This document shows, one piece after another, positions 31,569 to 31,901 of a stretch of DNA of 32,218 bases. The notes below the pieces were generated by a model that searched no databases, had not been told where the DNA came from, and saw nothing but the letters and a program-made list of their open reading frames with translations. Within the stretch, counting starts at the first letter, position 1. Each line of letters opens with the position of its first letter. Location of the stretch: the IMG/VR virus record IMGVR_UViG_2534682164_000018; one strand, written 5' to 3'. The position numbers were made by a program, and so were the translations under genes. Origin of the DNA: a virus (lineage: Duplodnaviria > Heunggongvirae > Uroviricota > Caudoviricetes).

Positions 31569-31901
31569 TTATCGAGAACTGTTCAGGGAGTCTGACATCA
31601 AGAGCGCGGTAGCCTTTTTTAATATTTCATTCTCCATTTCAATGCGTTGTAGCTTTTTCCTCAGCTTACGTATTTCGATTTGTTCTGGTGTTATCGGAGA
31701 GGCTTTTGGTGTTTTGCCCTGACGCTCATCACGCAGTTGTTTGACCCATCTTGTCATTGTGGAAAGGCCAACATCCATAGCTTTGGCGGCATCTGCCACC
31801 GTGTATTTCTGGTCAACAACCAGTTGAGCGGATTCGCGTTTAAACTCTGCGCTAAAATTTCTTTTTTCATTGGAGCACCTGTGTTGTTCTGAGGTGAGCA
31901 T
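31569..31901 (-). CDS. IS911 OrfA (HTH regulator); start region atypical
   Basis: Translation ...[98 protein letters not shown] matches IS911 OrfA as recalled, but the canonical ATG at 31868-31870 is out of frame (A-tract of 6 rather than the 7 I recall). Confidence 0.75.

What the first reader, a model, noticed from the sequence alone, without database searches (positions are those of the whole stretch)
31861..31901. IS911 orfA start region has an A-tract one base shorter than the canonical element as I recall it
The canonical start reads ATG AAA AAA AGA AAT (MKKRNF), from memory. Here the sequence is atgaaaaaagaaat, which puts that ATG out of frame; the open frame instead begins at an upstream ATG ([16 protein letters not shown]...). 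This may be a real inactivating indel, a natural variant or a homopolymer sequencing error.
Basis: partly seen in the sequence, partly recalled or inferred. Interest (0 to 1): 0.2.

Follow-up and report, generated by a model that had tools for sequence, protein, structure and literature searches.

The report
Sequencing error in an IS911 copy
The missing A at the start of this IS911 insertion sequence is in the window as described. It is almost certainly a base-calling error of a draft Shigella sonnei 53G assembly, because the finished genome of the same strain has the normal seven A's at the same insertion.

Summary
On the minus strand the window reads ATG-A6-GAAAT (ATG 31870-31868, A-run 31867-31862), and reference IS911 copies read ATG-A7-GAAAT. 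The open frame therefore starts at the upstream ATG (31901) and gives a 110-aa product instead of the 100-aa OrfA.

The window is identical to the end of contig ADUU01000102.1 of the draft S. sonnei 53G assembly. The finished chromosome of the same strain (HE616528.1) carries the same IS911 insertion in the same prophage tail gene. There it has A7, an intact catalytic aspartate and a 3-bp target duplication (CTA).

Over 27.7 kb compared with the finished genome, the window shortens 5 of 22 homopolymer runs of 6 bases or more by one base, and none of 339 runs of 4-5. It also has one inserted A and four substitutions. At the four indels in single-copy phage DNA, six other assemblies agree with the finished genome, and the genes are called whole in the other assemblies but shorter or split on the draft contig.

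A7 is the norm elsewhere: 23 of 23 copies in species-representative genomes, and 983 versus 7 E. coli records with exact matches.

Verdict: an ordinary, canonical IS911 with a homopolymer under-call in a draft assembly. It is not a biological feature, and its interest is very low.

The parts
30695..31942 (-). One IS911 copy (IS3 family). It is 1248 bp in the window and 1249 bp in the finished genome of the same strain.
   Evidence: It is 99.4-99.7% identical to copies annotated 'IS3-like element IS911 family transposase'. Alignment A1 covers it end to end. Both ends were located.
31907..31942 (-). Left terminal inverted repeat (IRL, 36 bp), TGAAGTGGCACACTGAATTTGGCCACC...
   Evidence: There is a single exact match in the window. 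The 36-bp IR length comes from PMC2909936.
30695..30730 (+). Right terminal inverted repeat (IRR, 36 bp).
   Evidence: It is identical to oligonucleotide IRRa of PMC2909936.
31862..31867 (-). The A-run of the finding: A6 in the window, A7 in reference copies and in the finished 53G genome.
31868..31870 (-). Canonical orfA start codon (ATG), out of frame with orfA in the window because of the missing A.
   Evidence: PGAP start in E. coli M8; a 100-aa OrfA is called in the finished genome.
31899..31901 (-). Upstream ATG at IS positions 42-44, preceded by GAGGTGAT. It is in frame with orfA only in the A6 version. In A7 copies it opens a short dead-end frame.
   Evidence: The frame arithmetic was checked on alignment A1.
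31569..31901 (-). The 110-aa open frame as it reads in the window: OrfA with M-K replaced by [12 protein letters not shown]. It equals database protein EFZ52326.1 of S. sonnei 53G.
   Evidence: (HTH_Tnp_1).
31614..31620 (-). Programmed -1 frameshift site A AAA AAG, intact.
   Evidence: Its role comes from PMC2909936.
30703..31542 (-). The orfB frame (279 aa from GTG), with an rve integrase core. The window version has two private substitutions, at 31194 (GAT>TAT, D>Y in WCGDVTYIW) and 31128 (AGA>GGA, R>G).
   Evidence: The protein equals EFZ52325.1, seen on one contig only.
31943..32218 (+). IS600 orfB fragment abutting the IRL. This is not the flank found in the finished genome.
   Evidence: Hits are annotated 'IS3-like element IS600 family transposase'. 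The finished genome continues with the tail gene after a CTA duplication.
9849..9855 (+). Private homopolymer deletion: T7 in the window, T8 in the finished genome.
21463..21467 (+). Private homopolymer deletion: T5 in the window, T6 in the finished genome and five other assemblies.
21502..21506 (+). Private homopolymer deletion: A5 in the window, A6 in all six other assemblies.
24901..24907 (+). Private homopolymer deletion: A7 in the window, A8 in all six other assemblies.
29772..29773 (+). Private inserted A (TTCAACAAAAAG versus TTCACAAAAAG). It splits the tail-tip gene into 483 + 312 aa, where the finished genome has 783 aa.

Best explanation
The window is the 3' end of a draft-assembly contig of Shigella sonnei 53G (ADUU01000102.1). 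What lies at 30695-31942 is an ordinary IS911 copy inserted in a tail-tip (J-like) gene of a degraded prophage. The six-A run after the orfA start codon is a one-base homopolymer under-call of that draft. In the real DNA the run is A7 and orfA starts at the canonical ATG to give the 100-aa regulator OrfA. OrfAB transposase is then made by -1 frameshifting at the intact A AAA AAG site. The 110-aa 'extended OrfA' is an annotation by-product of the error.

Shown: identity of the window with the draft contig; A7 at the same insertion in the finished genome; and a cluster of similar private homopolymer deletions in the window. Inferred: the draft, and not the finished genome, is wrong at this particular base. 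No reads were available to test this directly.
For: 1. Origin of the window. L018/L026 from ADUU01000102.1 are 100% identical to window 20703-32218, and the window ends one base from the contig end. The 110-aa OrfA and the 279-aa OrfB of the window are exactly EFZ52326.1 and EFZ52325.1 of S. sonnei 53G.

2. Same strain, independent assembly. HE616528.1 (L022) is collinear with window 18521-31942, with IS911 at the same position in the same gene. It has T7 on the plus strand (A7), G at 31194 and A at 31128, and a 100-aa OrfA is called.

3. Error profile. Over 27.7 kb of finished sequence there are 22 runs of 6 bases or more. The window shortens 5 of them by one base (both 8-runs, one of four 7-runs, two of sixteen 6-runs) and none of 339 runs of 4-5.

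4. Direction of the error. At the four indels in single-copy phage DNA (21462, 21501, 24900, 29772), all six other assemblies of this prophage agree with the finished genome against the window. The gene calls at these sites are shorter or split on the draft contig: a 190-aa gene is a 157-aa ORF in the window, a 99-aa gene is called at 80 aa, and a 783-aa gene is split into 483 + 312 aa.

5. A7 is the norm. It is found in 23 of 23 IS911 starts in species-representative genomes. An exact A7 82-mer is the best hit in 983 complete E. coli records, against 7 full-length exact matches listed for the A6 81-mer (21 records at 99% identity or more). An IS911 copy with the same IS911-IS600 junction as the window's end also has A7.

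6. A6 elsewhere tracks assembly quality. GCA_052712815.1 has at least 4 otherwise canonical A6 copies. At a locus shared with another assembly, it differs from that assembly only by five one-base homopolymer deletions.
Against: No reads could be inspected, so the error is inferred and not seen. IS911 is multi-copy, and either assembly may have built this copy from reads of several copies. The finished genome's A7 is therefore weaker copy-specific evidence than its agreement at the single-copy sites. The two 53G sequences may come from different laboratory stocks. Real A7-to-A6 slippage does seem to occur in nature: an IS30-truncated IS911 fragment with A6 and its own SNPs is shared by at least seven ETEC plasmid assemblies that also carry an A7 copy. 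The sequencing platform of the draft could not be verified.
Confidence: 0.9

Rival explanations
1. The deletion is a real, copy-specific -1 slippage mutation in the 53G stock that was used for the draft. It inactivates the canonical orfA start: the ATG then gives a 38-aa nonsense peptide. OrfA and OrfAB would be made only if ribosomes used the upstream ATG. Together with D>Y in the first catalytic aspartate, this would make the copy a decaying, immobile IS911.
For: The sequence reads this way. A7 runs are slippage-prone, and an apparently inherited A6 exists in an ETEC plasmid lineage. The window copy also carries two private substitutions in orfB, as a decaying copy would.
Against: The finished genome of the same strain has A7 and neither substitution at the same insertion. 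The same contig has four more private homopolymer deletions and one insertion in single-copy DNA. There, seven assemblies can be compared and the window is always the odd one out, and the genes are called shorter or split on the draft contig. A stock that acquired ten mutations in 28 kb, five of them one-base losses in the longest runs, is far less likely than base-calling error.
Confidence: 0.07
2. A6 marks a natural, functional IS911 sub-lineage. In it, translation starts at the upstream ATG, which has a GAGGTGAT Shine-Dalgarno-like sequence directly upstream. This would give N-terminally extended OrfA (110 aa) and OrfAB, and the lineage would still transpose. The A-run could even act as a slippage switch for transposase expression.
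For: The 110-aa protein is recorded on 46 contigs from several Shigella species. A6 copies that are otherwise identical to the canonical element sit at several different loci within single genomes (L009-L017). An N-terminal TrxA tag on OrfAB[1-149] still allowed DNA binding, although more weakly (PMC2909936).
Against: The best multi-copy example, GCA_052712815.1, is demonstrably a homopolymer-shortening assembly. Species-representative genomes have A7 in 23 of 23 copies. A6 copies lie on different SNP backgrounds and do not form one lineage. For the window's own copy, the same-strain finished genome has A7. No promoter-like site was found by the simple scan, so it is unknown whether the native transcript includes the upstream AUG.
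Confidence: 0.03

Closest known systems
IS911 (IS3 family, IS3 group), as described from Shigella dysenteriae and studied by the Chandler laboratory
   Same: The 36-bp terminal inverted repeats are present, and the IRR is identical to the published oligonucleotide. orfA and orfB lie in phases 0 and -1. The A AAA AAG frameshift site is intact. There is an HTH_Tnp_1 N-terminal domain and an rve catalytic core. Nucleotide identity to annotated copies is 99.4-99.7%.
   Different: As written in the window, the copy has one A fewer after the start codon, two private substitutions in orfB and no target duplication. None of these differences is present in the finished genome of the same strain.
Homopolymer-length base-calling errors of draft and long-read assemblies (a known artefact class)
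   Same: The changes are one-base losses confined to the longest runs (6 bases or more). They are private to one assembly, and they shorten or split genes that are called whole in the other assemblies.
   Different: There are no differences in pattern. The platform of the draft could not be confirmed here. From memory only, drafts of that series and date were pyrosequenced.
IS30-truncated IS911 fragment with A6 on ETEC plasmids (for example p120899_146)
   Same: It has the same one-base shorter A-run at the orfA start.
   Different: It sits on a different SNP background (two private substitutions) and is truncated after about 330 bp by IS30. It is shared by at least seven plasmid assemblies that also carry an A7 copy, so it is probably a real mutation in a dead fragment. 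It is not related by descent to the window's copy.

Membership tests
IS911 (IS3 family) | High nucleotide identity to reference IS911 over the full length | tested here: met
   Identity is 99.4-99.7% over about 1245 bp to copies annotated as IS911. Alignment A1 confirms this.
IS911 (IS3 family) | 36-bp imperfect terminal inverted repeats starting TG...CA | tested here: met
   The IRL is at 31907-31942 and the IRR at 30695-30730. The IRR is identical to oligonucleotide IRRa of PMC2909936.
IS911 (IS3 family) | orfA and orfB in phases 0 and -1, joined by an A AAA AAG programmed frameshift site | tested here: met
   The ORFs are listed and the slippery site is at 31614-31620. Its role comes from PMC2909936.
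IS911 (IS3 family) | A 100-codon orfA starting at ATG AAA AAA AGA | tested here: not met
   The window has A6, so the canonical ATG is out of frame. The feature is met in the finished genome of the same strain at the same insertion. The failure is therefore attributed to sequence error.
IS911 (IS3 family) | DDE catalytic triad in the rve domain | tested here: not met
   The window has Y in place of the aspartate of WCGDVTYIW (31194 G>T). The other seven copies compared, and the finished genome, have D. Assigning this D to the triad is inferred from the IS3/integrase motif and was not tested separately.
IS911 (IS3 family) | 3-bp target-site duplication | tested here: not met
   The window flanks are ...CTA|IS|GTA.... 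The finished genome has CTA on both sides. The window's IRL flank belongs to another IS911 copy or to a repeat-mediated join.
Homopolymer base-calling artefact | The variant is private to one assembly and absent from an independent assembly of the same strain | tested here: met
Homopolymer base-calling artefact | The same assembly shows further one-base length errors in long runs of single-copy DNA | tested here: met
   Five of 22 runs of 6 bases or more are shortened, and 0 of 339 runs of 4-5. Six other assemblies agree against the window.
Homopolymer base-calling artefact | Read-level evidence (mixed or shortened flow signals, low quality at the run) | not testable with these tools
   No reads or quality values are available.

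The most novel reading that the evidence does not exclude
The A7 run directly after the IS911 orfA start codon is a genuine slippage-prone tract. Its A6 state is a real, recurrent allele. It shifts initiation to an upstream ATG with a Shine-Dalgarno-like sequence and gives N-terminally extended OrfA and OrfAB. This would make the run an on/off or modulating switch of IS911 activity. On this reading, some of the 46 contigs carrying the 110-aa protein are real, and the window's copy could be one of them if the draft came from a different stock.
Probability: 0.03. Interest if true: 0.3.

Novelty: not a real feature. Interest (0 to 1): 0.03.

Why it matters
It matters only as a caution. The draft S. 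sonnei 53G assembly carries roughly one error per 3 kb in this region, mostly one-base losses in long homopolymers. These errors create spurious frameshifts, split genes and odd proteins that have entered public protein databases. Examples are the 110-aa 'transposase' EFZ52326.1 and the OrfB with a mutated catalytic aspartate, EFZ52325.1. Apparent pseudogenes or variant start sites in this contig, and in the long-read assemblies that show the same A6, should not be read as biology without read support.

Tried and rejected
1. I looked for the window as a contiguous match in complete E. coli genomes and in plasmids. Only mosaic IS and phage hits came back. The source was found through exact protein look-ups instead.

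2. I looked up the tail-gene/IS911 junction ORF (312 aa) to find independent assemblies of the junction. Only the draft contig itself was returned, because that ORF is itself created by a draft error.

3. I searched the literature for the draft's accession or sequencing platform and found nothing usable. The pyrosequencing attribution stays unverified.

4. I searched for the position of the IS911 pIRL promoter relative to the upstream ATG. The simple sigma-70 scan found no site. Whether the native mRNA includes the upstream AUG is therefore left open.

5. I considered that A6 copies form a single transposing lineage. I rejected this because they lie on different SNP backgrounds and the main multi-copy genome is an indel-prone assembly.

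6. I considered that the window's IS911-IS600 junction marks a distinct real copy that carries A6. The only contiguous match to that junction (S. flexneri 89-141 plasmid) has A7.

Full report
**What is in the sequence.** Window 30695-31942 holds one IS911 copy on the minus strand. The left inverted repeat, TGAAGTGGCACACTGAATTTGGCCACC..., starts at 31942. The right inverted repeat at 30695-30730 is identical to the 36-nt IRRa oligonucleotide published for IS911 (PMC2909936). The copy is 99.4-99.7% identical to elements annotated 'IS3-like element IS911 family transposase' in complete E. coli genomes.

On the minus strand the orfA start region reads CAGGTGCTCCA ATG AAAAAA G AAAT TTT AGC. The ATG is at 31870-31868, six A's follow at 31867-31862, and a G is at 31861. 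From this ATG the frame runs into a 38-residue nonsense peptide. The OrfA frame ([14 protein letters not shown]..., Pfam HTH_Tnp_1) is open from the ATG at 31901 and gives a 110-aa ORF, 31569..31901.

**What the canonical element looks like.** The IS911 copies of pCP301 and E. coli M8 have seven A's (alignment A1). NCBI's annotation pipeline (PGAP) starts the frameshifted IS911 transposase at that ATG. OrfA is 100 aa and OrfAB 382 aa in the IS911 literature (PMC2909936). The 100-aa MKKRNF... protein is named IS911 ORF1/orfA and occurs on at least 1000 contigs, whereas the 110-aa version occurs on 46.

A pattern scan of one genome per species found 23 IS911 starts, all with A7. Among complete E. 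coli records, the exact A7 82-mer is the best hit in 983. The exact A6 81-mer gave 7 full-length exact matches in the listed rows, all in one ETEC plasmid lineage.

**Where the window comes from.** Exact look-ups show that the 110-aa OrfA and the window's 279-aa OrfB are proteins EFZ52326.1 and EFZ52325.1 of Shigella sonnei 53G. The OrfB variant is recorded on a single contig. That contig, ADUU01000102.1 of draft assembly GCA_000188795.2, is 100% identical to window 20703-32218. The window ends one base before the contig end.

The surroundings are a degraded prophage with terminase, portal, capsid, tail fibre and tail-tip genes, interrupted by several insertion sequences.

**The decisive comparison.** The finished chromosome of the same strain (HE616528.1) was retrieved through neighbouring phage proteins (L022; L027). 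It is collinear with window 4198-31942 and has IS911 at the same position in the same tail-tip gene. In the finished genome:

- the run is A7 (T7 on the plus strand);
- position 31194 is G and 31128 is A, which gives the usual aspartate of WCGDVTYIW and the usual arginine;
- a 100-aa OrfA is called;
- the element is flanked by a 3-bp duplication, CTA, on both sides, and the tail gene continues beyond it.

**Error profile of the window.** Across 27.7 kb the window differs from the finished genome at ten sites.

- Five are one-base deletions in homopolymers: T8>T7 at 9849-9855, T6>T5 at 21463-21467, A6>A5 at 21502-21506, A8>A7 at 24901-24907, and the finding itself at 31862-31867.
- One is an inserted A, at 29772.
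- Four are substitutions: 8446, 27712, 31128 and 31194.

The finished sequence has 22 runs of six or more bases, and the window shortens five of them, including both 8-runs. It shortens none of 339 runs of four or five bases.

At the four indels in single-copy phage DNA, all six other assemblies of this prophage agree with each other against the window. These six include the finished genome. Around these indels the genes are called shorter or split on the draft contig:

- a 190-aa gene appears as a 157-aa ORF in the window;
- a 99-aa gene is called at 80 aa;
- a 783-aa tail-tip gene is split into 483 + 312 aa.

This is the signature of homopolymer base-calling error in the draft. The IS911 A7 run falls squarely in the affected class.

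**The contig end.** Beyond the IRL the window continues into an IS600 orfB fragment (31943-32218; annotation of hits) and not into the tail gene. There is no target duplication in the window. The same IS911-IS600 junction exists in an S. flexneri plasmid, where the run is A7.

The draft contig therefore passes through the repeated IS911 into the flank of another copy. This could be assembler behaviour or an IS911-mediated rearrangement; the two cannot be told apart here. It also means the IS911 sequence in the contig may be built from reads of several copies. For that reason I treat the finished genome's A7 as strong evidence for this copy but not as absolute proof.

**Other A6 copies in public data.** The 110-aa protein led to A6 copies at many loci. 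They lie on different SNP backgrounds, so they are not one lineage.

In GCA_052712815.1, four otherwise canonical copies have A6. At a locus that assembly shares with GCA_040188975.1, it differs only by five one-base homopolymer deletions. It is therefore itself a run-shortening assembly.

The one case that looks real is an IS30-truncated IS911 fragment with A6 and two private SNPs. It is shared by at least seven ETEC plasmid assemblies that also carry an A7 copy. This would be a slippage mutation in an already dead fragment.

**Mechanism and consequences.** The real element is most likely a canonical IS911. OrfA (100 aa) is made from the ATG, OrfAB is made by -1 frameshifting at the intact A AAA AAG site (31614-31620), and the catalytic core is an rve/DDE domain.

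If the A6 were real, the canonical start would be dead. OrfA and OrfAB could be made only from the upstream ATG at IS position 42, which is preceded by GAGGTGAT. The product would replace M-K with [12 protein letters not shown]. An N-terminal TrxA tag weakens DNA binding by OrfAB[1-149] but does not abolish it, so some activity would be conceivable. Whether the native transcript contains that AUG could not be established.

**Comparison with known families and verdict.** This is a member of IS911 by identity, ends, gene organisation and frameshift site. The three defining features it fails in the window are the 100-codon orfA, the first catalytic aspartate and the target duplication. All three are met by the same insertion in the finished genome.

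The A6 run is best explained as a sequencing artefact (confidence about 0.9). A real stock-specific mutation (about 0.07) and a functional A6 sub-lineage (about 0.03) remain formally possible. There is nothing novel here, and interest is very low. The useful outcome is a warning about error density in this contig and about spurious IS911 protein variants in databases.

Noticed in passing
window 31194 and 31128 (minus-strand orfB): There are two private substitutions in orfB: GAT>TAT (D>Y in WCGDVTYIW, inferred to be the first DDE aspartate) and AGA>GGA (R>G). Both are absent from the other seven IS911 copies compared and from the finished 53G genome. The resulting protein (EFZ52325.1) is recorded on one contig only. 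They are probably draft errors or a mix of reads from different copies.
   Followed up: partly
window 31943-32218: The contig end beyond the IS911 IRL is an IS600 orfB fragment, with no target duplication. In the finished genome the tail gene continues there after a CTA duplication. The same IS911-IS600 junction occurs in the S. flexneri 89-141 plasmid (L033). The draft contig therefore either runs through a collapsed repeat into another copy's flank or records an IS911-mediated rearrangement.
   Followed up: partly
window 29772-29773: An inserted A splits the tail-tip (J-like) gene into ORFs of 483 and 312 aa. The finished genome and five other assemblies lack the insertion, and the finished genome has one 783-aa ORF up to the IS911 insertion.
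   Followed up: yes
window 9849-9855, 21463-21467, 21502-21506, 24901-24907; also 8446 and 27712: There are four further one-base homopolymer deletions and two substitutions relative to the finished genome of the same strain. Around the deletions at 21463-21467, 21502-21506 and 24901-24907 the genes are called shorter on the draft contig. For example, ORF 24388..24861 is 157 aa in the window and 190 aa in the other assemblies.
   Followed up: yes
window about 5125-7094, 10825-12155, 27050-28381: The prophage (terminase, portal, capsid, tail fibre and tail-tip genes) is interrupted by several other insertion sequences. One is an IS21-family element (390-aa transposase plus IstB-like ATPase). 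Two are 1.33-kb IS3-family copies, 99.9% identical to each other, in opposite orientations, one in the terminase gene and one in the tail-tip gene. Other strains carry the same prophage with different IS insertions (L024, L025, L030).
   Followed up: partly
L014-L017 (GCA_052712815.1), L009, L010, L012: Several public assemblies with multi-megabase contigs report multiple otherwise canonical IS911 copies with A6. One of them differs from a sister assembly only by one-base homopolymer losses. The 110-aa 'transposase family protein' entries in protein databases (46 contigs) are therefore probably mostly artefacts.
   Followed up: partly
L001 (E. coli plasmid p120899_146, 75852-76148) and six or more related ETEC plasmids: An IS911 fragment truncated by IS30 carries A6 plus two private SNPs. 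It is shared across at least seven plasmid assemblies that also contain an A7 copy. This is probably a genuine slippage mutation in a dead fragment.
   Followed up: partly
L002 (pCP301, AF386526.1 216790-217128): The 2001 annotation of 'IS911 ORF1' starts at an upstream GTG (112 aa) and not at the canonical ATG (100 aa). This is an over-extended start call, because the A7 frame is open upstream of the ATG.
   Followed up: no
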